Shown: one piece after another, positions 1,870-53,932 of the stretch
How positions within the stretch are numbered: the stretch's first letter is position 1
How the letters are laid out: the number at the start of each line of letters is the position of its first letter
Assembly: GCA_964016885.1 (NCBI GenBank)
Contig: OZ024740.1
Location: 126,356,001 to 126,420,000, forward strand
Origin: Eledone cirrhosa
Lineage: Eukaryota
Direction of reading: 5' to 3'
DNA: 64,000 nt
Notes under the pieces: model-generated
Databases searched by the model: none
The model's input: the letters and a program-made list of their open reading frames with translations, nothing else
What the model was told of the DNA's origin: nothing
Position numbers and translations under genes: made by a program

Positions 1870-1910
<41 letters not shown>

Positions 1911-1963
1911 TAATACAAACAATGAAATAAAAACCAAGAACAGGTTCCTTATAATAAAAGAAA

Positions 1964-2106
1964 TCATCATTTTACGATCGTTTCTGAGATATATATGTAT
2001 GTGTTGGTATGTATATCATATTAAAGATCTATGTAAAACAATATTACAAATTATCAGAGGAGATATACATACCTTCACTTATATATGCCATCTTCAGAAA
2101 TGATGA
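1964..2106 (-). ncRNA. Type I hammerhead ribozyme (long stem II insertion)
   Basis: Minus strand: tcatcattt-CTGAAGA-tgg..~100 nt..tca-GAAA-cgatcg-TA-aaatgatga; 9-bp stem I, palindromic stem III. Confidence 0.8.
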
Positions 2107-3122
2107 AGTATGTTTATTGAAAGAAAGTATTAATACAAAAAGGCTGTTTGGGAACAGGTTTTGATTTGACCAATAGAAAAGAGTTAGAGGTCAAGTTGAT
2201 AGAATAACATTAGTAGAAACTTTATGCTAGGAGTGGAGGAATGTAAATGTATGCTTTGAATGAAAAGAATACAATGGGGAAGAGAAGGGTAGGGTTTAAA
2301 ATAAGGTGAAGTCAATGCGATAGTGTAGGATTCCCCCCACAAATTGATGTTATTAAAGAATGTTGTTAAAAGCATAGGAAAAAGAATTTTTTGTGGGGTG
2401 AGTATGTTAGTGAGAAATACTACTCATGTTTAAATTTCAAGGAAGATAAAAGGAAATTAAATTAATTGATAGGTATAGATACAGAGTTAAAATTATACTT
2501 ATTCTTATTGATGTGATAAATTAAGATCTAAAAAAAAAAAAATAAAAAAGAATATATATAGAAAGATTGAAATAGATAAATTTTATAAAAAGTAGTGTAT
2601 CTATCTAAACATGCATAATATTAAAGATATTAATTATATTTACTAATTCCAGGTATTGAATGGTATATATAGGGGATGCGGTTAAAAGAAGTAGTTAGGT
2701 TAAAGATAAGTTTAGGTAAAGTGAGCTGCTAGAGGGAAATAACATTATGAATTTTAACTCAATTAATTTAATTTCTTTTTATGTTCCTTGAAATTTAAAC
2801 ATGTGTAGTATTTCTCTCTAACACATCTCACCCCACAAAAAATTATTTTCCCTATGCTTTTAACAACATTCTTTAATAACATCAATTTTTTGGAAGAATC
2901 CTACACTATCGCATTGACTTGATCTCATTTTAAACCCTACCCTTGTCTTCCCCATTGTATTCTTTTCATTCAAAGCATAAATTTACATTCCTCCACTCCT
3001 AGCATAAAGTTTCTACTACGGTTATTCTATCAACTTGACCTCTAACTATTTTCTATTGGTCAATTCAAAACCTGTTCCCAAACAGCCTTTTTGTATTAAT
3101 ACTTTCTTTCAATAAACATACT

Positions 3123-3265
3123 TCATCATTTCTGAAGATGGCATATATAAATGAAGGTATGTATATCTCCTCTGACAATTTGCAATATTTTTTTACATAG
3201 ATCTTTAATATGATATACATACCAACACACACATATATATCCCAGAAACGATCGTAAAATGATGA
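3123..3265 (+). ncRNA. Type I hammerhead ribozyme (long stem II insertion)
   Basis: tcatcattt-CTGAAGA-tgg..cca-GAAA-cgatcg-TA-aaatgatga. Confidence 0.82.
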
Positions 3266-3470
3266 TTTTTTTTTAAATCATTCTTTGTTTTTATTTCATT
3301 GTTTTTATTAATTTATCTTGACTCTGTTTTCCTTTGATTTTTATCGTAAAATTTTGAATTAGTAAAAAGTAAAATAAAATGCTGACAACTTTTTCCCAGT
3401 GAAAAATAGTTTAATTAGGAATAAGTATAAATTAGTAATAAGTATTAGTGAGTATTCAGTTTTAGTTTTA

Positions 3471-10040: not shown

Positions 10041-10341
10041 GATATATATATATATATACATATATATATAAAGAATTAATATCTAGTAACATATATATAC
10101 ATACAGATGCATATCAATGCTAGCAAATATATAGGTTTTGTCTTAGTAACTTTGTGGTTCAATGCATGGGGTTGCAGAACAATAATATGAGAGACGTAAA
10201 ATAAGAAAATTATAAAATTAACTTACTTACTAAAATATCACTTCCAACTAATTAGTTTCTGGAATGGAATAAATATATTTTCCGGAGAAAACATAAGTTT
10301 CCAGAGTCCACGCTTTGCCTGGCTACTTAGATAAGAATAGT

Positions 10342-10421
10342 CTTCCCTGACGACGGAATGATTCTCAATGTTTTCTCCGGAAAATATATTTATTCCATTC
10401 CAGAAACTAATTAGTTGGAAG
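10342..10421 (+). ncRNA. Type I hammerhead ribozyme
   Basis: cttcc-CTGACGA-cggaatg..cattcca-GAAA-ctaattag-TT-ggaag. Confidence 0.85.
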
Positions 10422-10863
10422 TGATATTTTAGTATATAAGTTAATTTTATAATTTTCTTATTTTACGTCTCTCATATTATTGTTCTGCAACCCCATGCAT
10501 TGAACCACAAAGTTACTAAGACAAAACCTATATATTTGCTAGCATTGATATGCATCTGTATGTATATATATGTTACTAGATATTAATTCTTTATAATTAT
10601 CTCCAAATTATTTGTCGAGCAATATTGGCCATGACTGCTGCTATGGTAGCAGGCAGGCCGCTGTCTTATTAGCAAACCACTTTCCACTGATTGACCTCGA
10701 TGTCACGTGATTGATTCTTTTTGAATTTGCCACCGACGCAGAGGCAGTGATTTTCTCAATGGCTAGGAATTCAGTCCACGCTTTGCTATTTTCTATCCAC
10801 TGAATTATTTTTTAATAAGTTTCCAGAGTCCACGCTTTGCCTGGATACTTAGATGAGAATAGT

Positions 10864-10942
10864 CTTCACTGACGACGGAATGATTCTCCATGTTTTCTCC
10901 GGAAAATATATTTATTCCATTCCAGAAATTAATTAGTTGGAA
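10864..10942 (+). ncRNA. Type I hammerhead ribozyme (second tandem copy, stem I mismatches)
   Basis: cttca-CTGACGA-cggaatg..cattcca-GAAA-ttaattag-TT-ggaa; 522 nt downstream of the first copy. Confidence 0.7.
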
Positions 10943-10994
10943 ATGATATTTTAGTATATAAGTTAATTTTATAATTTTCTTATGTTACGTCTCT

Positions 10995-11305
<311 letters not shown>

Positions 11306-13800: not shown

Positions 13801-14552
13801 AAGAGAGAGACCGGAAGGGATGTACACACACAGACAGGCACACACACACGCATATATATATATATATATATATATAGAATACATAAACAGAGAAAGCCTT
13901 AAGCGATACTCCGACCAATTCCATCTCCCTCAACAAACATAAGGATATACTTAAGTATTATCCCAATTTAGTGTTTGAGGTGCTAACTAATCAGTATTTC
14001 GTGGAAAATTGGTTGTATTATTTTATATGAGACATTATTAAATAAATATCTTTTTCTTCCAGACGGCCGTTTCGTCATAAGATTTCTACAAATTGGGATA
14101 AATAATTTCCAGGTTATATATATACAATATTATTACTAATATATGTATATATATATATATTTATTAGTAAAAAGGAAAAGAAAATGCTGACAAATGTGTA
14201 GGACACCTCGTTTTTTTTTTCATTTTGCAAAAAAACCTGGATTTCTAATAATATATATATATATATATGTGAATATCTTTAAGTCGTTTGGAAGCTTCGA
14301 CAATGCAAATGGGTAAATCTCCGGGTAACAAGGTCCGCTAGCTGTCAGTCCATTCTCTGCCTGTTTGTTAAATGTTACTGTGTGTGTGCGTGTGTTGTTG
14401 TCTCGCTTGAGTGTGTGTGTGTGTGTGTGCGTGTGTTATAGCCTTTTTCCTCTGTATTGGCAGTGTAGTATGTTCGTATGGTGGAATGCTACTGTGTGTG
14501 TGTGTAGTTGTCTCGTTTGTGTGTGTTGTGTGTTGTTGCATCGCTTGTTAAC

Positions 14553-17169
14553 TTAAACCAGCCATCTCATTTCGCTTCTCTCTGATCGGTTGTTTATTTG
14601 CGGTTGCAGTCGTTTGATAAAAAGCGCTTCCTTGATACGTAACGTGCCGACGTTTCTTTCAGTCGCTAGAATTGTGACAATGGGCCTTCCGTCTTTGTTT
14701 CCGCATTTGTCTATGTGCTTCCGGAAAGACGAGGCCCTGTTCCTTGATCCGGATGTGCAAAGTCGAATTGTGTTACCTATGTAGTATTGGTTGCACCTGT
14801 CACATTCTATCTTATACACGACGTATGTGCGTAGGCAACAGTTCGCATGGCGTATCGGGCAGTCTCTGAGGGAGCATGCGTCAGTAGATTTTTCGGGTTT
14901 CTTGGAGAGGCATCTTCGCAGGGAGGCGCCCGAGTGGGCCAGGTGGATGTCGAGGCCCTCCCTCCATATAGCCTTGCGGATAGCGTTGGTGGTTTTCTCG
15001 CCCAGGTGTGGCATTTTAAGGAAGCACTTGCCTTGGGTGCTTCTCTGTCTCTTGCGTCTGGTGTCTCCTATTCTGTCTGTGATCGAGGTAGGGTACCCGT
15101 TCGTCTCCAGCACCTCGAGGAATCGCTTGGTATGAGTGACACCACGCGCGCGATCGCTGCATCTGTTTTTGATTCGCGCGATTTCGTTCGTGATGTATCC
15201 TCTTTTGGCACTGTTAGGGAGGGCGGACTTGTAGTGAACGAATAGGTCCCTGCAGGCTGCCTTTCGGTAGAAGTTGCAGTGGATCCTTCCCTGTTCCGTG
15301 ATGTTGATTCGGAAGTCGAGGAGGGCAAGTGACCCGTCTTCGTTGGGGTGTTCAACACTGAAGTCAATGTTCTCGTCCGTGTTGTTGAACGTCTCATAGA
15401 TTCTGTTCGCCGTGTCTTGGGAAGATGTGAGGATGAGGATATCGTCCACGTACCTTGAGAAAAAGGCTACGGCGTTGGGGTGGCAGGCGTTGAGTGCCTT
15501 GCATTCGAGGTTGTCCATGTAAGAGATCGCTAGCACACCTGATAGGCTTGATCCCATGGGCAATCCCGAGGTTTGTTGGTATATTTGGTCAAGGAATCCG
15601 AAGTAGGTGTTGTCGACGACGATGGATAGGAGTTGGTGGATGTCAGTGGTGGTGAGCCCGAAGCAGTGTAGGTCGGTGGATTGGACGCTTCCATTAGTAT
15701 ATTGACGGCCGGGAGTGCCGGGACCGAGGTGTAGAGAGCGACTACATCAAGGCTGAAGGCATATCTGTTATTCCTTCTGGTGTCGGGATCCATTTGATGC
15801 AGGCGCTTCAACACCTCCTCGGAGCTGTTGACGTGTCCCGGCAAGGTGTCTAAGATGGGTTTGAGTATTCTGGCTAGGAGCCATGAAATTTTGTAGAGTG
15901 GTCCCTCCACGCTCGATACGATGGGCCTGATTTTCAGGTCGGGTCCCTGTTTGTGTGTTCTCGCGAGGTTGTAGAAGGCGGGTAGTCTGCTGTTCCTCGT
16001 GAGGAGGTTGTATCTCAGATTCTTCGGGAGCTTCCGCCGGTCGCAGATGTTGGTTCAGGCGGAGTTGATGAGTTCTTCTATCTGCGCGGGAGTGATTCCC
16101 GTGACCTTGGAGTAGAGGTTGTCATCGTCAAGGTGTTGGAGGGCCAGGATGTTGTAGGCCTCTCTGCTGATGACGCAGAATTCTTCTCCCTTGTCGGGGG
16201 GGGGGATAGATGAGGTTCTTCGATTTTAGGTTGGAGAGAGTGGTGAGTTGAGATTTGGTGAGGTTATGTGTTGTGCGTGTGTGTGTGTGTTTGTGAAGTA
16301 TATTCGAGATGGAGTGTTTGAGCCTGATGAGTTTAGTGTCGAGTTCGTGGTTGGTGGGTGGGGGGTGGAGTGGGTTGTCGGGGTGGTAAGTGGGGAACTT
16401 GGGGTGGGTTGCGTCGGCGCTGTTATTTTCTGTGGCGCTGTTGATGGCGGTCACCCATTTAAGTTGGTAAGCGGCTCGACAAAAGTTGGCCTCGATGTTG
16501 AGTTTGAGTCTGTCGTCGAGACGTTGTGTGACGATGAACTTAGGTCCGAGGTGTAGGAGTTTCAGCTCGTCGCTCGTGAGAGTGCCGGTTAGGTCGGTGA
16601 CCAGGTGCGTCGCATCGTTGAGGTATGGCTCGATGTTGGTGGTTGCGGCGGTGGCGGTTGTAAAGTTGTTGTTTTCCATGTGGTTGGTTCTGGTCCGTCT
16701 GTTCGTTAGTGTCGATGTTCTCGTTGTGGCGTTTCGATAAGATCCACTCATATTTTCGCTTGAGCCGTTTTTATTCGTATTGGACTCTGGAGTGGTAGCA
16801 CTGGTCGATTGCTTTAGTGATTTTCAGGAGCAAGTCTCCGGGCGCTATTGGCAGTCGATGTGTCCGCTCTGAGAGTGTCCGCTTATGGACGTGTAATTGG
16901 CGGTTGAGATGTCTCAGGATCTGTTTAATACACGTGCGTTGTATGCGGTTAGTGGTGATTTGGAAGGCTGGTGTACGTAGGCTTACTGGTAAGCGGATGT
17001 TCTTGATGGTGTTGGAGATGACATCGTTTTTTAGGCAGCGTTTCAGGAAAATAATTTGGCAGCCAGCGTTGACCCATTTCTCCGTCAGTCTAAACAGTTC
17101 CCTTACGGATGCAAACAATTCCTGGCTCAGGTGTAAGGATAAGAGAGTATTGAAGTTTGCTTGAAGCAT
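14553..17169 (-). pseudogene. PLE ORF: N-terminal domain, RT, C-terminal GIY-YIG; several frameshifts
   Basis: MLQANF..FLKRCLK; LHLGPKF; FSLDVVALYTSVP; PMGSSLSGVLA; RYVDDI; LLDFRI..FYRK; VVYKIECDRCNQYYIGNT. Confidence 0.92.
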
Positions 17170-17859
17170 TGTGGAACCATAAGTAAATATCTTTAAGTCG
17201 TTTGGAAGCCTCGACAATGCAAATGGGTAAATCTCCGGGTAACAAGGTCCGGTGGTGGAGAGAGAGATGTAAGTAGGTGTACGTTGAGATGCGTGGTGTG
17301 TATAAGATGTGTGAAATGTGTAGAATGAAGAGTATAAAGGATAGAATAAAAATAACAACACAAGAGAGAGTTACCTTGGGAGAGATTTAATAGTCCCTAT
17401 ATATTTCGGATTCACATCTATCAACTGGGGTTTTTTTCCGGGGTGGGGGAAAAGGTTGTCTGTCGGACAGGTCCGGAATGCGTCCTTCGCTGTTTGTTGT
17501 TTTGAATATCTGAGGTATTCGGCAGAGCGCGCGTGCGCGTGAAATGGGGTCGGTCGTACAGAGGTCAGCGGCTGAATGAGGGAGTGGGATGGCGCTAGCT
17601 GTCAGTCCATTCTCTGCCTGTTTGTTAAATGTTACTGTGTGCGTGTGTGCGTGTGCTGTTGTCTCGCTTCAGTGTGTGTGTGTGTGTGTGTGTGCGTGTG
17701 TTATTGCCTTGTTCCTCTGTATTGGCAGTGTAGTATGTACGTATGGTGGAATGCTACTGTGTGTGTGTGCGTGTGTGTGTGTGCGTGTGTGTGTGTGTTG
17801 TCTCGTTTGCGTGTGTGTGTGTGTGCGTGTGTTGTGTGTTGTTGCATCGCTTGTTAACT

Positions 17860-19008
17860 TAAACCAGCCATCACATTTCACTCTCTCTGATCGGTTGTTT
17901 ATTTGCGGTTGCAGTCGTTTGATAAAAAGCGCTTCCTTGATACGTAACGTGCCGACGTTTCTTTCAGTCGCTAGAATTGTGACAATGGGCCTTCCGTCTT
18001 TGTTTCCGCATTTGTCTATGTGTTTCCGGAAAGACGAGGCCCTGGTTTTAGTGTGTTCCTTGATCCGGATGTGCAAAGGTCGAATTGTGCTACCTATGTA
18101 GTATTGGTTGCACCTGTCACATTCTATCTTATACACGACGTATGTGCGTAGGCAACAGTTCGCATGGCGTATCAGGCAGTCTCTGAGGGAGCATGCGTCA
18201 GTAGATTTTTCGGGTTTCTTGGAGAGGCATCTTCGCAGGGAGGGGCCCGAGCGGGCCAGGTGGATGTCGAGGCCCTCCCTCCGTATAGCCTTGCGGATAG
18301 CGTTGGTGGTTTTCTCGCGCAGGTGTGGCATTTTAAGGAAGCACTTGCCTTGGGTGCTTCTCTGTCTCTTGCGTCTGGTGTCTCCTATTCTGTCTGTGAT
18401 CGAGGTAGGGTACCCGTTCGTCTCCAGCACCTCGAGGAATCGCTTGGTATGAGTGACACCACTCGCGGGATCGCTGCATCTGTTTTTGATTCGCGCGATC
18501 TCGTCGTGATGTATCCTCTTTTGGCGCTGTTAGGAAGGGCGGACTTGTAGTGAACGAATAGGTCCCTGCAGGCTGCCTTTCGCTAGAAGTTGCAGTGGAT
18601 CCTTCCCTGTTCCGTGATGTTGATTCGGAAGTCGAGGAGGGCAAGTGACCCGTCTTCGATGGGATGTTCAACACTGAAGTCAATGTTCTCGTCCGTGTTG
18701 TTGAACGTCTCATAGATTCTGTTCGCCGTGTCTTGGGAAGATGTGAGGATGAGGATATCTTCCACGTACCTTGAGAAAAAGGGTACGGCGTTGGGGTGGC
18801 AGGCGTTGAGTGCCTTGCGTTCGAGGTTGTCCATGTAAGAGATCGCTAGCACACCTGATAGGCTTGATCCCATGGGCAATCCCGAGGTTTGTTTGGTATA
18901 TTTGGTCGAGGAATCCGAAGTAGGTGTTGTCGACGACGATGGATAGGAGTTGGTGGATGTCAGTGGTGGTGAGCCCGAAGCAGTGTAGGTCGGTGGATTG
19001 GACGCGTT
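17860..19008 (-). pseudogene. Duplicated 3' half of the PLE ORF (RT C-half + GIY-YIG)
   Basis: GLPMGSSLSGVLA, RYVEDI, VVYKIECDRCNQYYIGSTIRPLHIRIKEH. Confidence 0.9.
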
Positions 19009-19102
19009 CCATATATATATATATAATTCATTTTCCATTGGTTTCCTGAAGACATATTTATATCTGTCTGCAGTCGTTAGAATGAATCACACGGAACATG
19101 TT

Positions 19103-19167
19103 ATTCATTCTGACGATTTAAGACAGATATACATATCTGTCTTCAAGAAACCTCTGGTAAATGAATT
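19103..19167 (+). ncRNA. Type I hammerhead ribozyme
   Basis: attcatt-CTGACGA-tttaagacagata tacata tctgtcttcaa-GAAA-cctctgg-TA-aatgaat. Confidence 0.85.
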
Positions 19168-19334
19168 TATTATATTATGTTGTTTATTACATAACTAAAA
19201 AGCTCTGTAGGCTACATAGAGAACTCTTGACTTATTTTATTTTACATTACTCCGGAGTAACTAAACCAACCTGCGTACTTCGTCGAGTGCTCCAATCTGC
19301 ATACTGATGTGACGTTGAACAACCAACATTTACT

Positions 19335-20514: not shown

Positions 20515-21769
20515 TATTGTTATACTTAGGGAGGGTCATATTTGTGTAATATTGCCAGAATTAATAACAGAACACACTCACTGTTTGGTTGGTTTTTGCT
20601 TTTCGCTTCTGTGTCTTTTGTATCGGTAATCTAATTTATTCGGTCCTCAATGTTGCCATTGACTGACCAACGGTCAAAAATAATACAGATACAATATAGA
20701 CACAAACACATATATATAGTTCATCAAAGTTCTTTCGTTGCACATCTACCACCTTAAACATTAAGGTGGTCGAAAAGCCAGGAATCACCATAAAATCCTT
20801 GATCAGCAAAACCTACCCTTTTAAGAAAACCCACTCTACTAATAGGAAATGTATCATATGTAAGGTAAACCCCCGGATAAATTGTAAAACTAGAAACGTA
20901 GTCTATAGCATAAGATGTACAGAGGGTACTTGCAGAAACATGACAACAACATACATAGGCGAGACAGCTCGTAGCATAGGTGAAAGGATAGATCAACACT
21001 GGGGGGGGGGGACTAAAAGGACGAAAAAACGCTTCAGTACTATACGAACATGCCAGACAACAGCACGACGGTAACATAGACAACATAGAAATTCGAATAT
21101 CTAAACATAGAAATGACCCAGCAGATAGGCAAATCAGAGAGGCCAGTGAAATAGAACTTAGAAAGCCAAGGCTAAACAGAAAGAATGAATGGAATAACAA
21201 CAACACCCAAACAAACAACACTGACCTAAGAGAAGTATAAAAAAATAAATACATACATACACAAGCACAATAACAACACACACATATAAACACACACTAG
21301 TAAAGATAGAATACATTAACCAATACACAGTCAGCCAATCACGAACACACATCAAACAAAACACTATACACACGCAAACGGATGCGCAAAGAAGACAAAA
21401 TAAAATAAACAAATAAATAAATATATAAATAGACTAAATAAAGATGGCGTAAAAAATACAATGCAACGGGAGGAAACAATAGCACCACTGACGATGTTGC
21501 AGATGTGCAACAAAAGAACTTTGATAGACAATATATATGTGTTTGTGTCTATATTGTATCTGTATTTTTTACCGTTGGTCAGTCAATGGCAACATTGAGG
21601 ACCGAATAAATTAGATTACCGATATAAAAGACACAGAAGCGAAAAGCGAAAACCAACCAAACAGTGAGTGTGTTCTGTTATTCATTCTGGCAATATTACA
21701 CAAATATGACCCTCTGCAAGTATAACAATATTTGTTTCGACACACGATTTCATAAAAAAAACCTCGCAA

Positions 21770-24325: not shown

Positions 24326-24328
<3 letters not shown>

Positions 24329-24882
24329 CGTTTCTGAATTTGTTTAGCAAGACTGTTTATCTGAAAATGTGTGTTGAAACCGATATTGTTATACTTTGGG
24401 AGGGTCATGTTGCCAATAAGAAACACACGCACCAGTTGCTTTCACTTCAATTTATTATAATAAATTTATAAATTCTGGAATTTATAAATTTCCGGTTGGT
24501 TGGTTGGTTGGTTCCACAACCAGATGGTTGTTTATATATTGTCAAAGTACTTTCGTCAAACATTCTGAGACCTCATCATGGGGTAGGACAGAACAAAGGA
24601 GAGGCACAAAAACAAAGAAAAGAATCCCCAGTCACTGAAGAGGTCACAGAATGTGTGACGAAAGAACCTTGACAATATATAAACAACCATCTGGTTGTGG
24701 AACCAACCAACCAACCGGAAATTTATAAATTCCTAAATTTATAAATTTATTATAATAAATTGAAGTGAAAGCTATGGTGCGTGTGTTTCTTATTGGCAAC
24801 ATGACCCTCCCAAAGTATAATAATATCGGTTTCAACACACGTTTTCAGGTAAACAATCTTGCTAAACAAATTCAGAAACGAA

Positions 24883-24883
<1 letters not shown>
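24326..24883. mobile_element. Fold-back pseudo-LTR pair (arms 24326-24578 / 24636-24883) with a hammerhead in each arm
   Basis: Near-perfect inverted repeat between (TA)n tracts; + arm gtca-CTGAAGA-ggtcaca gaatg tgtgac-GAAA-gaac-CT-tgac (24631-24673; U16.1 mutated). Same terminus at 24936, 25553, 44285, 46660-46865 and 51820. Confidence 0.85.
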
Positions 24884-24936
<53 letters not shown>

Positions 24937-25031
24937 TTCGTTTCTGAATTTGTTTAGCAAGATTCTTTATCTGAAAACGTGTGTTGAAACCGATATTGTT
25001 ATATTTTGGGAGGGTCATGTTGCCAATAAGA

Positions 25032-25235
25032 AACGAGTAGGACTCTGACGGCTGAGCTCAAACCGTTTCGACGCCTAATTCTGAACTAAAAAATTAGTCC
25101 AGAATTAGCCGTCGAAACGTCTTGAGCACAGCCGTCAGGGTCCTACTCGTTCCTGTTACCCACTCTCCTTCCCTAAGCATTGAGTACTTTGGTGCGTTAT
25201 GGTCCACCTGGTTCCTTACCACATTTCCTTCGTTA
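25032..25235. mobile_element. Short fold-back terminus (palindrome 25032-25151); family shared with 53190-53330 and 53529-53720
   Basis: aacgagtaggac..ctaattctgaactaa / ttagtccagaattag..gtcctactcgtt; ends in (TA)n. Confidence 0.7.
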
Positions 25236-30006: not shown

Positions 30007-30107
30007 GTCGATCTTCTAGCTCTTTGGTAACGACCGTATTATTCTTCTGTATGTTTAATTGTTGAATTAATTTAATCTATTTATTTTAACAAACAAATAA
30101 TTCCTAT

Positions 30108-30348
30108 ATATATTAATAAAAGGAATTCCAACTTTTTCTGTTTTACTCGTTTTATTTACAATCCTTTAAAATTTATAATGGTATTAGAATGAAATAGTTT
30201 GGTAGAATATTAAATGTTAAGTGTTAATTGACACTTAACATTTAATATTCTACCAAACTATTTCATTCTAATACCATTATAAATTTTAAAGGATTGTAAA
30301 TAAAACAAGTAAAACAGACAAAGTTGTGGAATTCCTTTTATTAATATA
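30108..30348. repeat. Almost spacer-less 240-bp palindrome; right arm repeated at 31604-31750
   Basis: Apex gtgttaattgacac at ~30221-30234. Confidence 0.92.
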
Positions 30349-30408
30349 ATCTATACACAATCATACACACCCGTGTATATAAATCTCCCCCCCCCCCCCT
30401 CTCTCTCT

Positions 30409-30487
<79 letters not shown>

Positions 30488-30489
30488 CC

Positions 30490-30530
<41 letters not shown>

Positions 30531-30577
30531 TTAAAAGAATAGAGGTGTAACACACAAGTTATGATATATATGTGTGT

Positions 30578-30648
<71 letters not shown>

Positions 30649-30728
30649 AGACAGAGCGAGAGAGGAGTGGGATAACGGAGGTGCGACAGAAATGAAACAT
30701 GGATTACAAATTAAAATATAATCTAGAT

Positions 30729-30948
30729 CAGGCATGTCAAACTGAACATCTCCCGAGCACCACATGGGTCACATATGTGTTGTCTGAGGGCGCCGCATGA
30801 CAACTAATTGCACACATTACAATGAATATTTTTTAATTTTATATTACGAAGATAAAACATGTTCACGCTGTAAAGACGTTTGTGCGGGCCGCAGGTATGC
30901 TTGTGAAGGGCTGCATGCGACCCGCTGGCCGCATGTTTGTCATGCCTG
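30729..30948. mobile_element. hAT-like MITE
   Basis: Terminal inverted repeats CAGGCATGTCAAAC / GTTTGTCATGCCTG and subterminal gcgggccgca-type motifs; no clear 8-bp TSD. Confidence 0.7.
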
Positions 30949-31565
30949 GTTTTGAGTATGCAACGAATAAAGAAGGGCACAGAACTGTAAGAACAGATAA
31001 TGGCTGCAATGTCTCACATATGTAGGTTGTTGACCCGCTATGTTTTACTGCATTGCAGTAATGACTGCCGTGTCACAGTTGAATAGAGTCTGCTGTCACT
31101 ATTGCCTGTTACCGTTGTTAGAAAGGTTGCTGTGCGGGCTGGACAGAACAACGTCGGAATCCTCTCACTCTATTCTCATCACAGTATAGAATGGTTCACT
31201 CAACACACGAACTTGAATGATGTCATCCACAGGCTCCTAGACAAAGCCATTTCAAATGTCACAGGTTGAGCCATCCATCTCGATCCTGGTGATGGTAAGT
31301 ACTAGGACGTAATATCAGAATCAATATGCATATGCCCAACAAAATATCATATAGCAAAGCCTCGCCAGAAGATATTTAACTCTAAGCCTTTGCCAGAAAT
31401 GGTTTATTGAATAATCATTCTAAAACGGTAGCATTAACAGTATAAAATCTAATACCGAAAGTACAAGCTGATGAAAGAATCCGTGTAGGTGATTGAAACA
31501 AATGTAAACCAAACATTATATATATACATATTGAAAATTGCAAACTTGACTGCCACGACACAATA

Positions 31566-31604
31566 TGAACCTGAAGATTGCGAAAGAATGAAACTACTTG
31601 TTCA
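31566..31604 (+). ncRNA. Minimal type I hammerhead (weak stems II and III)
   Basis: tgaac-CTGAAGA-ttgcgaaagaat-GAAA-ctac-TT-gttca. Confidence 0.62.
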
Positions 31605-31744
31605 ATTAACACTTAACATTTAATATTCTACCATACTATTTCATTCTAATACCATTATACTTTTTAAAGGATTGTAAATAAAACGAGTAAATCAGACAAA
31701 GTTGGAATTTATTTTCTTAATATAATCTTCTATCATACACACCC

Positions 31745-31811
<67 letters not shown>

Positions 31812-36557: not shown

Positions 36558-36605
<48 letters not shown>

Positions 36606-36654
36606 TAAGGAATGTATATACTTTCAGACGTTAAACCATCTGGCAGGAAGGTAT

Positions 36655-36697
36655 ACGATGCTGACGATAGCTAATAAGCTTGAAACTAGTACATCGT
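36655..36697 (+). ncRNA. Minimal type I hammerhead ribozyme
   Basis: acgatg-CTGACGA-tagct aata agctt-GAAA-ctag-TA-catcgt. Confidence 0.88.
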
Positions 36698-37100
36698 TCC
36701 TGTGTCAGTGTTGAACAAAAAGGTGACGTGGTTGCCTAAACACTGTACCCCGTAATTCGAGCTATTTGTTTGTTTACAACCAAACAAACCGAGCATTATA
36801 ATAAATGTTCGGTAAACCGATACGTGCATATATATATGTGTGCATGTGTGTATATATATACATACTACTGTACGTCTGTATACATATATGTATGTACGTA
36901 TACATACATACATACTTACATTTAAGTAAGTGCCGTACTAAGATTCAGAAATAAAATTTCGTTTCATTCTATTCCATTTATCGTTTTCGGTGTGCCCGGC
37001 CGACTGAACTCACTCGATATGTAAATTAGGCTGCTCAGCCGTTAATATGCATATGGAAAGTATATACTTTCAGACGTTCAACCATCTGGCAGGAAGGTAT

Positions 37101-37143
37101 ACGATGCTGACGATAGCTAATAAGCTTGCAACTAGTACATCGT
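37101..37143 (+). ncRNA. Second hammerhead copy (GAAA>GCAA)
   Basis: Identical to 36655-36697 except A13C. Confidence 0.65.
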
Positions 37144-37357
37144 TCCTGTGTCAGTGTTGAACAAACAGGTGACGTGGCTGCCTAAACCCTGTACGGCGTA
37201 ATTCGCGCTGTTTGTTTGTTTACAAACAAACCGAGCATTATAATAAATGTTCGGTAAAACGATAGTGCATATATATACATGTGTGCATGTGTGTATAAAT
37301 ATACATACTACTGTACGTCTGTATACATATATGTATGTACGTAGACATACATACATA

Positions 37358-37586: not shown

Positions 37587-38406
<820 letters not shown>

Positions 38407-39486: not shown

Positions 39487-39751
39487 AGAAATACTCAGAC
39501 CCTCCGTCACAACTCTACTTTTGGAAAGCAGAAGAACTGCGAAACCGGTAAAGGAACAAAATAAAAATATATATTATTTTAAAAATAAGACTCCAGTTGC
39601 ATTTTCGATTTCATTGTTTTTTATATATACTTTCACTCGTGTAGGAAAACCTCAGTTATTTTTCATTTTGTAAAAAAAAACTCACTTTTCAATATATATA
39701 TATATATATACGATATTAAATAAATGGAAACTATATTTATAAAACCATATT

Positions 39752-39817
39752 TATTTCATTATATATATTTCAGGGATATCATATTAACAATATGCTATGC
39801 CTTCCTCAGACAAAATA
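39752..39817 (-). ncRNA. Type I hammerhead ribozyme (mirror copy)
   Basis: Exact reverse complement of 40001-40066. Confidence 0.78.
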
Positions 39818-40000
39818 CAATATAGACAGTTTTATAGATAAATAGATTTGACATACCGTTCAACATCGACTTGTATTTGAAAAGTTGATTTGGCAGATCA
39901 ACTTTTCAAATACAAGTTGATTTGCCAAATCAACTTTTCAAATACAAGTCGATGTTGAACGGTATGTCAAATCTATTTATCTATAAAACTGTCTATATTG

Positions 40001-40066
40001 TATTTTGTCTGAGGAAGGCATAGCATATTGTTAATATGATATCCCTGAAATATATATAATGAAATA
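40001..40066 (+). ncRNA. Type I hammerhead ribozyme
   Basis: tattttgt-CTGAGGA-agg..cct-GAAA-tatata-TA-atgaaata (stem I with two GU pairs). Confidence 0.78.
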
Positions 40067-40193
40067 AATATGGTTTTATAAATATAGTTTCCATTTATTT
40101 AATATCGTAAATATACTCCAAATACTTGTTGAGTGCTTTTATATCAGTTATAAATATTTACTAGTTGTAACCCAACAATTTAAATATAACTTT

Positions 40194-43682: not shown

Positions 43683-44141
43683 TATAAAAGTAGCGAAACA
43701 AACGGTTAAATTAAAAAATGATTAAATAATCACCTGTTCAGATGCTGTTACCGACGGTTTCATCATTCCGAAAGATTGAAAATCCAACGAATTTCCAATG
43801 GAAAGAAAGGAATCTTCAGACAATTTTTTTTAGTGGCAATTCGACATGTTTATAATATCCAGCTTTTATCAGCGACCTGATTTGCGTGTGTGTCATTTTA
43901 ACGGCTTGACCGCATGCGTTGGGCAGGGAGCATAATATTTACTTGCTATTAGGCTAGATACCTTATGGCGTGGAAATAGGGCTGTCTGAAGATTCATTTC
44001 TTTACATTGGAAATTCGTTGGATTTTCAATCTTTCGGAATGATGAAACCGTCGGTAACAGCATCTGAACAGGTGATTGTTTAATCATTTTTTAATTTATT
44101 TATAAAATTGTTTAATAACCGTTTGTTTCGCTACTTTTATA
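43683..44141. mobile_element. Fold-back element (arms 43683-43822 / 43983-44141) with a hammerhead on each strand
   Basis: Reverse-complement arms around a ~160-bp spacer; left end in (TA)n. Confidence 0.85.
43981..44061 (+). ncRNA. Type I hammerhead ribozyme (mirror copy at 43744-43822, -)
   Basis: gctgt-CTGAAGA-ttcatt..aatgat-GAAA-ccgtcgg-TA-acagc. Confidence 0.85.
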
Positions 44142-44704: not shown

Positions 44705-44824
44705 GCAAAATAGATGTACACAGTTTTTACCTGTCCCGACATTAGTGTTACTCTATCCAGGTTACAGCCTAAGAAGTTAGATAAGCGTTGAACTGGCGTA
44801 TTTTTCAAGACACAAATATATATA

Positions 44825-45603
44825 GATCGTTAATATATCTCATATAAAATAATACAGCCAATTATCCACACAATACAATATAGTTAGCACTCCAAACGTT
44901 TAATAGGGAATATACTCCGGTATTTCCTAATGTTTGTTGAGTGAGTTGAAATTGGTCGGAGTATGGCTAATAGCTTTCTCCGTTTATGTAATTATGTAAT
45001 ACACTCTTGAATCACCAGAAATGAACTTTCCCGATATAAGGTATGATTCTCTTTGTTTATTTTTTTTATATGAATATTGATTGTTTGTTCCTGTATCTCA
45101 TATCTGTTATTTTGCCTGAGAAAATATATTTATATGTCCTTAAACAGTACACACATATATTTATTTTTTCATATCTGTTTGAGTTCTTCGCAGGAGGCTT
45201 GAATTCTTGTTAGAGTTCAATGACCTGCGTGTATATTATTGTTCACGGTAGCCTCCTCCTCCCTTTTTGGGGACAGTGTGAGATTTTATTACGAGCTACT
45301 GGACTTACAACCTAGCAGCTCTTTCTAGCACTGATAGAGATTATCGCTAAATAATGATGTTGATTTAGTTATTAATATTAATAATGCTTAGGCACCCACT
45401 GAAGATTTGTAAGAACCCACTTGCATAAGAATCCATCGATCTTACGCAAGTTTCTACATAACTTGGTATAATTTCACCCACGATGTAGAAATCTTACAAT
45501 GAAACGATTCATTTGGGAAATGAGATCTTTAATATATCTCATACAAAATAATACAGCCGATTATCCACACAATATAATATAGTTAGCATTCCAAACGTTT
45601 AAT
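44825..45603 (+). mobile_element. Non-coding unit-plus-a-bit element (~699-bp period) with an HHR just before the repeat (family D); inverted relative at ~13885-14040
   Basis: 44825-44904 repeats at 45524-45603. Confidence 0.65.
45395..45517 (+). ncRNA. Type I hammerhead with extended stem II
   Basis: ccca-CTGAAGA-tttgtaaga..tcttacaat-GAAA-cgattca-TT-tggg. Confidence 0.68.
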
Positions 45604-52494: not shown

Positions 52495-53110
52495 TACGTA
52501 CATACATATATGCATACAGACGTACAGTAGTATGTATATATATACATACATGCACACATACATATATGTACGTATGGATTTACCGAACATTTATTATAAT
52601 GCTCGGTTTGTTTGTAAATACATACTACTTATATTTAAGTAACAGCCGTACTAAGAGTGAGAAATGAAATTTCGTTTCATTTATCCCATTTAACGTTTTC
52701 GGTGCGCCTCACTCGATATGAAAATTAGGCTACTCAGCCGTTAATATGCATAAGGAAAGTATATACTTTCAGACGTTCAATCATCTGGCAGGATGGTATA
52801 CGGTGCTGACTGTAGCTAATAAGCTTGAAACTAGTACATCGTTCCTTTGTCAGTGTTTAACAAAAGGGAAACGATGGTTGCTAGACACTGCGGCTTTATA
52901 CGGGATGTTTGTTTACAAACACACCGAGCATTATAATAAATGTTCGGTAAATGCATACGTACATATATATATATATATGTGTGCATGTATGTATATATAT
53001 ACACACTACTGTACGTCTGTACACATATATGTATGTACGTATACATACTTATATTTAAGTAACAGTCGTACTAAGAGTGAGAAATGTAATTTCGTTTCAT
53101 TTTTTCCATT

Positions 53111-53111: not shown

Positions 53112-53193
<82 letters not shown>

Positions 53194-53325
53194 CGAAGGA
53201 AATGTGGTAAGGAACCAGGTGGACCATAACGCACCAAAGTACTCAATACTTGAGGTAGTAGAGTGGGTAATAGGAACCAGTAAGACCCCGACAGCTGAGC
53301 TCAAGCCGTCGGGGTCTTACTGGTT

Positions 53326-53401
<76 letters not shown>

Positions 53402-53528: not shown

Positions 53529-53531
<3 letters not shown>

Positions 53532-53932
53532 AACGTGTAGGACCTCGACGGCTGACTTCAAGCCGTTTCGACGGCTAATTCTGGACTAAATGAAAATGTT
53601 CATTTAGTCCAGAATTAGCCGTCGAAACGGCTTGAGCTCAGCCGTCGGGGTGCTACTCGTTCCTATTACCCACTCTGCTACCCTAAGTATTGAGTACTCT
53701 ACTACCCTAAGTATTGAGTAGTTTCGTGGCATATTATGCAAAAACACTACATCACAGAGATATAGAATTTGTATCACGTGATTGACTCCCCCTCCGCCTT
53801 TCGGGATTCTATCTCACGTCCTACAGACGTGTTTTCAAACTCTTAATGAGGTATCTTCTTGATAAGTCGGCAGACCTCACACAAATTCTATATCTCTGTG
53901 ATGAAGTGTTTTTGCATAATATGCCACGAAAC
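53529..53932. repeat. Two adjacent fold-backs (53529-53664; 53721-53772 / 53881-53932)
   Basis: Reverse-complement arms; the second has a decayed HHR-like GTGATGA..cacGAAAcaacgTA. Confidence 0.75.

What the first reader, a model, noticed from the sequence alone, without database searches (positions are those of the whole stretch)
30108..31750. Palindrome apex maps within 2 nt of a predicted ribozyme cleavage site
Seen: the HHR at 31566-31604 predicts a 3' product starting GTTCAATTAACACTT. The left arm of the 30108-30348 palindrome is the reverse complement of that sequence up to TCAATTAACACTT and then snaps back. Similarly, the first repeat of family D (44825) begins ~10 nt after the equivalent cleavage position (45513). 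Inference: RT ran off the 5' end of a self-cleaved RNA and folded back on its own cDNA, a genomic footprint of in vivo cleavage.
Basis: inference. Interest (0 to 1): 0.72.

Follow-up and report, generated by a model that had tools for sequence, protein, structure and literature searches.

The report
Penelope palindrome ending at ribozyme cut
This palindrome is a head-to-head insertion from a high-copy, likely Penelope-type retroelement whose junction sits 2 bases past a predicted hammerhead-ribozyme cut, and four deletion junctions in other copies land there too, which may be a genomic trace of ribozyme activity, although most copies run through the site.

Summary
The left arm of the 30108-30348 palindrome stops 2 nt past the predicted hammerhead cut (31599|31600), and family D's first repeat starts 9 nt past its cut.

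The structure is the known Penelope-like head-to-head pLTR with a one-sided tail, inserted in a TA run. The window's hammerhead is degenerate, but public runs show the family majority restores stem II and a palindromic stem III.

- Only 1 of 8 hammerhead-anchored palindromes in the window has its apex there (chance P about 0.38).
- 15 of 24 measured 5' ends lie upstream of the cut.
- None of the seven ends near the cut is at exactly +0.
- The apex sits on an 8-nt self-annealing site.
- The 27-nt tail lies on the wrong arm for a simple snap-back. Two annealed cDNAs fit better.

Verdict: a known element type with a suggestive, unproven footprint of cleavage or of a folded ribozyme. A genome-wide count would decide it.

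The parts
30109..30231 (-). Left, inverted arm; family F from +2 to +124 relative to the cut; no tail; abuts a TA run at 30105-30112
30224..30231 (.). Apex: 8-nt quasi-palindrome able to self-anneal with two G-T pairs
30231..30348 (+). Right, direct arm from +9
30349..30375 (+). 27-nt one-sided tail; its end forms an AC-rich 6-bp stem-loop together with the first letters of the TA run that follows
31531..31747 (+). Separate, more diverged family F copy (-69 to +147) between a TA-rich stretch and a TA microsatellite; family depth starts near 31531
31566..31604 (+). Minimal type I hammerhead; predicted cut 31599|31600. This copy differs from the family majority at 31587 and 31594, which weakens stem II and breaks stem III
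31725..31747 (+). Tail of the F copy (the majority has a 7-nt insertion at 31731, as in the palindrome's tail)
44824..44904 (+). Family D upstream repeat, starting at +9 from the cut, after a TA run
45394..45518 (+). Family D hammerhead with a long branched stem II (z -3.4); stem III decayed; predicted cut 45513|45514
45523..45603 (+). Family D downstream repeat (93.8% to the upstream one; unit 699 nt)

Best explanation
The palindrome is a head-to-head insertion of a high-copy short hammerhead-bearing element, likely mobilised by a Penelope-like reverse transcriptase, in which two cDNAs likely ended at the 5' end of self-cleaved RNA and annealed to each other rather than one folding back on itself. 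SHOWN: two inverted arms; a tail on one arm only; TA-run flanks; arm ends at +2 and +9; a family majority with intact hammerhead stems; four deletion joints resuming at +2 to +6; RT and GIY-YIG remnants elsewhere in the window. INFERRED: a dimeric Penelope-like protein nicked both strands of a TA run and primed one cDNA from each of the two initiation sites that bound the tail. The two RNAs, possibly paired as a dimeric hammerhead through the palindromic stem III, had been cut. In the deletion copies RT would have run out at the same place and jumped to the upstream fragment still held by stem I. This would be a minority route: most copies were made from RNA that was uncut, re-ligated or bridged seamlessly.
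For: Tail on the arm that does not reach +2. The observed top-strand apex is the sequence expected from annealing at the 8-nt site (by inspection). Majority letters C at 31587 (X1 depth 566190 of 567923, 81 contigs; X5 783 of 810 reads) and G at 31594 (566510 of 569368, 72 contigs; X5 734 of 764 reads) give a 3-bp stem II with a GAAA loop and a palindromic stem III; the second organism label X4 shows both letters too. 4 of 4 listed joints resume at 31602, 31605, 31605 and 31606 from 31552, 31561, 31570 and 31550; one is seen in X1 and X2, one in X2 and in one X5 read; rough chance 1e-5 to 2e-4 if landing sites were uniform over 120 or 60 nt. With the majority letter, 31592-99 is a perfect 8-nt palindrome, a better annealing site 10 nt further on that these cDNAs did not use (read). 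PAc protein cleaves and extends both strands, starts at two sites bounding the tail and is predicted to be a dimer (PMC11167929). Family D's +9 start.
Against: 1 of 8 palindromes and 2 of 23 events lie in 0..+10 (P 0.38 and 0.23). 15 of 24 ends are upstream of the cut. None of the seven ends near the cut (3 in the window, 4 joints) is at +0 or +1. Family depth over the ribozyme (506-569k) is 73-87% of the depth just downstream (658-692k), and it swings to 228k elsewhere, so no step can be claimed. No strand-change joint was listed; the window's own palindrome was not listed either, so the call shows no sensitivity to apices. The joints have short sides (22-30 nt; none given for the fourth) at 80% likeness, which the tool flags as unreliable; the 31552-31602 joint has a 3-nt microhomology with the majority letter and can slide to +5. 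In families B and G, and in palindrome P by eye, the tail-bearing arm reaches further 5', as a fold-back would predict. For PAc, hammerhead mutants transposed normally in vitro and no RNA-seq reads began or ended at the cut. No autonomous partner for family F was found.
Confidence: 0.4

Rival explanations
1. The RNA was not cut. RT paused at the 3' foot of the folded ribozyme (stem I pairs 31600-31604, so the first stop is +5), then fell off, annealed, or skipped across the fold.
For: Joints at +5, +5, +6 and one that can slide from +2 to +5. No end at +0. Several other families' ends fall inside or just before their ribozyme (-34, -49, -59, -61, -67, -74). Cleavage is dispensable for PAc in vitro.
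Against: The monomer fold is weak (5-bp stem I, 3-bp stem II; -2.9 kcal/mol for the window copy). The left arm goes 3 nt into stem I.
Confidence: 0.25
2. The position is set by DNA sequence alone: an ordinary 5' truncation resolved at the best local self-complementary site, or a longer palindrome that later lost its centre by deletion. Nearness to the cut is coincidence.
For: +2 has the highest self-annealing score among positions downstream of the cut and is one of 5 of 180 positions with an overlap of 8 nt or more. The stretch just downstream holds a short direct repeat. Palindrome P (53273-53327) has its apex on an intrinsic inverted repeat, and that family shows three different apices. Window-wide counts do not beat chance.
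Against: Does not readily explain four different deletion joints with scattered 5' and clustered 3' breakpoints, nor family D's +9 start.
Confidence: 0.25
3. One reading: one cDNA ran off the cleaved RNA and snapped back on itself.
For: A cDNA ending at +2 can form a 4-bp terminal hairpin. Snap-back junctions are seen at low frequency for R2 (PMC11331408 passages). Self-priming was proposed for PLE palindromes, though on an antisense template (PMC3846280 passages). It works if the tail-bearing arm was first, ended near +4, and the G at 30230 is a later substitution.
Against: The arm that reaches +2 lacks the tail, so copying it cannot produce the other arm's 27 extra bases. Full run-off to +0 predicts one more A at the apex than is seen. 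The rescue needs a substitution that happens to match the template letter (arms differ at 4 of 114 columns).
Confidence: 0.1

Closest known systems
Endonuclease-containing Penelope-like elements with an inverted 5' pLTR and optional tail (PMC3846280 passages; PMC8557442 passages)
   Same: Head-to-head inverted copy, a 27-nt extension on one side only, palindrome at the junction, TA-run target.
   Different: No ORF or body between the arms; arms of only about 120 nt that lack the ribozyme; apex at the ribozyme's 3' edge.
Minimal type I hammerheads of metazoan PLEs (PMC4209133, parts 1-2 of 4)
   Same: CUGANGA and GAAA core, 5-bp stem I, palindromic stem III predicted to work as a dimer, mostly single dispersed copies; opposite-strand pairs close together were noted there.
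   Different: Stem II is only 3 bp and opens with U opposite U, not the conserved G10.1-C11.1 pair. That paper gives no in vivo evidence of cleavage.
PAc, Poseidon of Anolis carolinensis (PMC11167929, parts 1-2 of 4)
   Same: Two RT start sites bounding a tail in an AC-rich stem-loop about 85-120 nt downstream of the ribozyme cut; AT-rich target; both strands extended.
   Different: PAc is autonomous; cleavage was dispensable in vitro and no RNA ends were found at the cut.
R2 (HDV-like ribozyme; PMC3774820 abstract) and Perere-3 (twister variant; PMC8501958 abstract)
   Same: The precedent for genomic 5' junctions marking a ribozyme cut.
   Different: There the ribozyme is at the element's 5' end and defines full-length copies; here it lies near the 3' end and most copies cross the cut.
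Non-LTR retrozymes (PMC7229834 passages; bioRxiv 10.64898/2026.07.22.740005, part 1 of 5 and passages)
   Same: Short non-coding hammerhead elements related to PLE pLTRs; family D (1.1 units of 699 nt) resembles a monomer plus a partial repeat.
   Different: Family F is not in tandem in the window, no 'go back' joint was listed, and its ribozyme is of the minimal type.

Membership tests
Penelope-like element (EN+), non-autonomous or truncated 3' end | pLTR carrying a minimal type I hammerhead | tested here: met
   Core and stems at 31566-31604; majority letters restore the stems
Penelope-like element (EN+), non-autonomous or truncated 3' end | Inverted 5'-truncated copy joined head-to-head | tested here: met
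Penelope-like element (EN+), non-autonomous or truncated 3' end | About 30-40 nt tail on one side only | tested here: met
   27 nt, 30349-30375, with an AC-rich stem-loop
Penelope-like element (EN+), non-autonomous or truncated 3' end | Insertion in AT-rich or (TA)n targets | tested here: met
   TA runs flank both F loci; a target-site duplication cannot be delimited inside a TA run
Penelope-like element (EN+), non-autonomous or truncated 3' end | ORF with RT and GIY-YIG endonuclease linked to this pLTR | tested here: inconclusive
   No ORF next to either F locus (DNA upstream of 31495 is single-copy). RVT_1 (14553-15743) and GIY-YIG (20700-21071 above cut-off, 17669-18526 just below) occur elsewhere in the window but share no DNA similarity with F
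Penelope-like element (EN+), non-autonomous or truncated 3' end | 5'-UTR intron ending near the ribozyme | tested here: inconclusive
   Loose ends before 31531 end in a T run plus CAG in 14 and 10 contigs, agreement 0.62; no RNA data
Minimal hammerhead ribozyme | Self-cleavage, as a dimer or protein-assisted | not testable with these tools
   Needs an in vitro assay; no RNA run was available
Minimal hammerhead ribozyme | G10.1-C11.1 pair closing stem II | tested here: not met
   U opposite U in the window copy; no variant at 31578, 31579 or 31589 among the 40 of 152 difference rows shown
Minimal hammerhead ribozyme | Palindromic 15.2-16.2 and loop 3 | tested here: met
   Majority G at 31594; not met in the window copy itself
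Non-LTR retrozyme | Tandem repeats of 150-400 nt, each with a hammerhead | tested here: not met
   Single copies in the window; no tandem joint listed (limited sensitivity)
Non-LTR retrozyme | Circular RNA intermediate | not testable with these tools
   No RNA data

The most novel reading that the evidence does not exclude
Penelope hammerheads cut their RNA in the germ line, and the genome records it. Two RNAs paired as a dimeric hammerhead are cut and copied by a dimeric RT from the two tail start sites. The two cDNAs then anneal at their 3' ends, giving short tail-asymmetric palindromes, or jump to the held upstream fragment, giving ribozyme-deleted copies. This would be the first in vivo trace of PLE hammerhead cleavage and a mechanism for the inverted pLTR with a one-sided tail.
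Probability: 0.35. Interest if true: 0.7.

Novelty: new member of a known kind. Interest (0 to 1): 0.45.

Why it matters
Whether the hammerheads carried by Penelope-like elements cut RNA in vivo is open. Cervera and De la Pena state there is no in vivo evidence, Craig et al. call the function unclear, and the only reconstituted PLE did not need cleavage and showed no RNA ends at the cut. A very abundant family in a genome with about ten hammerhead families in one 64-kb window makes the question directly testable by counting ends, with core-mutant subfamilies as built-in controls. The tail asymmetry also offers a test between fold-back and two-cDNA models for the inverted pLTR. I did not find a paper mapping PLE insertion ends against the hammerhead cut in searches; the library lacks two key papers, and no supplements were read, including Fig. 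S2 of PMC11167929.

Tried and rejected
- Whole-genome count: no genome is held.
- Rfam at gathering score: 0 matches in the window; minimal hammerheads were found by motif scan instead.
- No RNA holder listed.
- RAD run X5: read-end pile-ups at 31536, 31604, 31607, 31662 and 31709 were rejected as evidence. Four coincide with the three AATT sites of the window copy and the fifth with an AATT present in the majority letters, so they are probably restriction ends (the enzyme type is inferred). The one at 31604-07 would otherwise have looked like a pile-up at the cut.
- Depth step at the cut: not separable from noise.
- Strand-change joints: none listed, with no shown sensitivity. Only 22 of 174 loose-end rows and 20 of 2691 pieces were shown.
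- Metagenome scan: 14 loci, each matching only 24-25 nt of family F, so no family copies.
- Earlier findings of the scan: nothing.
- An alternative pairing of the 31468 core with the 31590 GAAA was rejected: no stem II, and 31468 is single-copy.
- Library or assembly artefact for the palindrome was rejected: the arms differ at 4 of 114 columns.
- Rows left out of the 24-end count: the F copy's own -69 end and the right arms of A, C, J, K and copy L, all of which cross the cut. Eight palindromes with no anchoring hammerhead (24785, 25029, 25259, 35265, 53273, 53530, 53718, 54102) could not be placed. Two of the 24 rows (C third copy, E 46.6k) give the limit of shared homology, not a proven end.
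- Two binomial figures used miscounted n and are replaced.

Full report
SETTING. The window is AT-rich, repeat-dense DNA of animal type, full of (TA)n microsatellites. It holds broken RT and GIY-YIG frames, many inverted repeats and about ten hammerhead-like families. No whole genome is held. I took the host to be cephalopod-like from recalled repeat features; this was not tested and nothing below depends on it.

THE OBSERVATION. The palindrome is real: centre 30227.5, 104 of 125 pairs. The motif at 31566-31604 has a 5-bp stem I, the CUGANGA and GAAA cores and a predicted cut at 31599|31600. The left arm, reverse-complemented, matches from +2; the right arm matches from +9. Family D's upstream repeat begins at +9. 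The window's ribozyme copy is decayed (z -0.14), and the arms are closer to each other (4 of 114 columns differ) than to it (8 and 10 of 114). The palindrome therefore came from another family member and its source ribozyme is inferred.

THE FAMILY. I laid two contig sets of one sample (X1, X2), one of a second organism label (X4) and one RAD run (X5) on 30955-31752. The DNA is single-copy up to about 31494. From about 31531 to 31724/31747 the summed depth rises from about 5 to several hundred thousand; the tool warns that this is not a copy number. Majority letters at 31587 and 31594 (over 99% of contig depth; 783 of 810 and 734 of 764 RAD reads) give a 3-bp stem II with a GAAA loop and a palindromic stem III, the pattern described for dimer-acting PLE hammerheads (PMC4209133). 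Stem II opens with U opposite U, not G-C; the same occurs in families G, I and K and in the D copy.

ANATOMY OF THE PALINDROME. The left arm ends at +124 against a TA run. The right arm continues 27 nt further, through an AC-rich stem-loop, into a TA run. This is the known PLE arrangement of an inverted pLTR with an optional tail (PMC3846280; PMC8557442). In PAc the tail is the stretch between two RT start sites, and both target strands are cut and extended (PMC11167929). The arm that reaches furthest toward the cut is the tail-less one. Two cDNAs from the two start sites, annealed through the 8-nt quasi-palindrome at +2..+9, give the observed top strand directly. This step is inferred. Families B and G, and palindrome P by eye, show the opposite polarity, so fold-back remains possible for them.

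DOES ANYTHING PILE UP AT THE CUT? In the window, no. Of 8 palindromes anchored to a hammerhead (A 1908, B 10062, C 19010, E 24327, F 30108, G 52495, J 39703, K 43707), only F has its junction within 10 nt of the cut (P 0.38). Of 24 measured 5' ends, 15 lie upstream, 3 (two events) in 0..+10 and 6 at +89..+128; P is 0.23 over 23 events, or 0.14 among the 8 events that end downstream. In the runs, depth over the ribozyme is 73-87% of that just downstream, within noise, so most copies cross the cut. The RAD end pile-ups are at AATT sites and were discarded. One is present in both X1 and X2, and one in X2 and in a single read of the independent sample X5. A uniform null gives 1e-5 to 2e-4, but the sides are short, likeness was set at 80%, the 3' side is a stretch where the window copy matches the majority and so aligns easily, and one joint has a microhomology. 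No strand-change joint was listed, but the window's own palindrome was not listed either, so apices were not tested.

MECHANISM. Some process ends cDNA synthesis at the ribozyme's 3' edge in a minority of events. Cleavage is my leading reading (0.40 for the whole chain): the monomer fold is weak, the left arm enters stem I, and a better annealing palindrome 10 nt upstream was not used. A pause at the folded, uncut ribozyme (0.25) fits the +5/+6 cluster and the absence of +0 ends. Sequence-driven truncation or a later central deletion (0.25) fits the microhomology and the flat window statistics. Pure snap-back gets 0.10. That the element is PLE-derived I put at about 0.9, short of certainty because no autonomous partner was linked.

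COMPARISON AND NOVELTY. The element type, the palindrome with a tail and the minimal hammerhead are all known. Genomic junctions at ribozyme cuts are known for R2 and Perere-3 (abstracts), and snap-back junctions for R2 (passages). For PLEs, the papers I read report no in vivo cleavage evidence, and searches listed no study of insertion ends against the cut. Two relevant papers were not held and no supplements were read. What I saw of each paper: PMC11167929 and PMC4209133, parts 1-2 of 4; bioRxiv 10.64898/2026.07.22.740005, part 1 of 5 plus passages; PMC8557442, PMC3846280, PMC7229834, PMC11331408 and PMC6765202, passages; PMC3774820 and PMC8501958, abstracts.

VERDICT. Observation confirmed, interpretation partly supported. 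This is a new member of a known kind carrying a testable hint on an open question. Interest 0.45; the novel reading has probability 0.35 and interest 0.7 if true.

Noticed in passing
window 31578/31589, 36668/36681, 38157/38208, 43993/44043, 45406/45500: Stem II opens with U opposite U (not G10.1-C11.1) in four hammerhead families (F, G, I, K) and in the D copy: a recurring non-canonical variant.
   Followed up: partly
window, boundary at 31531: Other family F copies continue upstream with a T run plus CAG, resembling a splice acceptor 35 nt before stem I (14 and 10 contigs, agreement 0.62); an intron ends beside the ribozyme in D. virilis Penelope.
   Followed up: no
window 31461-31510: A second, decayed hammerhead-like motif (both cores, 4-bp stem II, no stem I) just upstream of the F copy; single-copy at 80% likeness. 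F probably inserted into the TA stretch behind it.
   Followed up: partly
window 1908-3313, 10062-10600, 19010-19179, 24327-24882, 39703-40115, 43707-44098, 52495-53041: Seven more head-to-head palindromes of different hammerhead families; the inner ends of B, C, E and K fall within 75 nt upstream of the cut.
   Followed up: yes
window 25029-25233, 53193-53327, 53530-53717: One family forming three palindromes with three different apices, two of them with tails; it has a GAAA-like motif but no first hammerhead core in the window. The 53273 apex lies on an intrinsic inverted repeat.
   Followed up: partly
window 24327-25233: Chain of nested inverted insertions from two families around TA microsatellites.
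   Followed up: no
window 10293-10998, 36599-37356, 37667-38296, 44824-45603: Four short non-coding units (446-699 nt) bounded by hammerhead-bearing direct repeats, retrozyme-like non-autonomous PLE derivatives; upstream repeats start at -124, -93, -67 and +9.
   Followed up: partly
window 14269-19086 (-): Partial tandem of an RT plus GIY-YIG element (93% between copies) with a 69-nt terminal repeat and no hammerhead found on its strand by my scan.
   Followed up: no
window 30721-30950: About 230-nt element with short terminal inverted repeats, MITE-like (label recalled, not tested), lying between the two F loci and showing that they are separate insertions.
   Followed up: no
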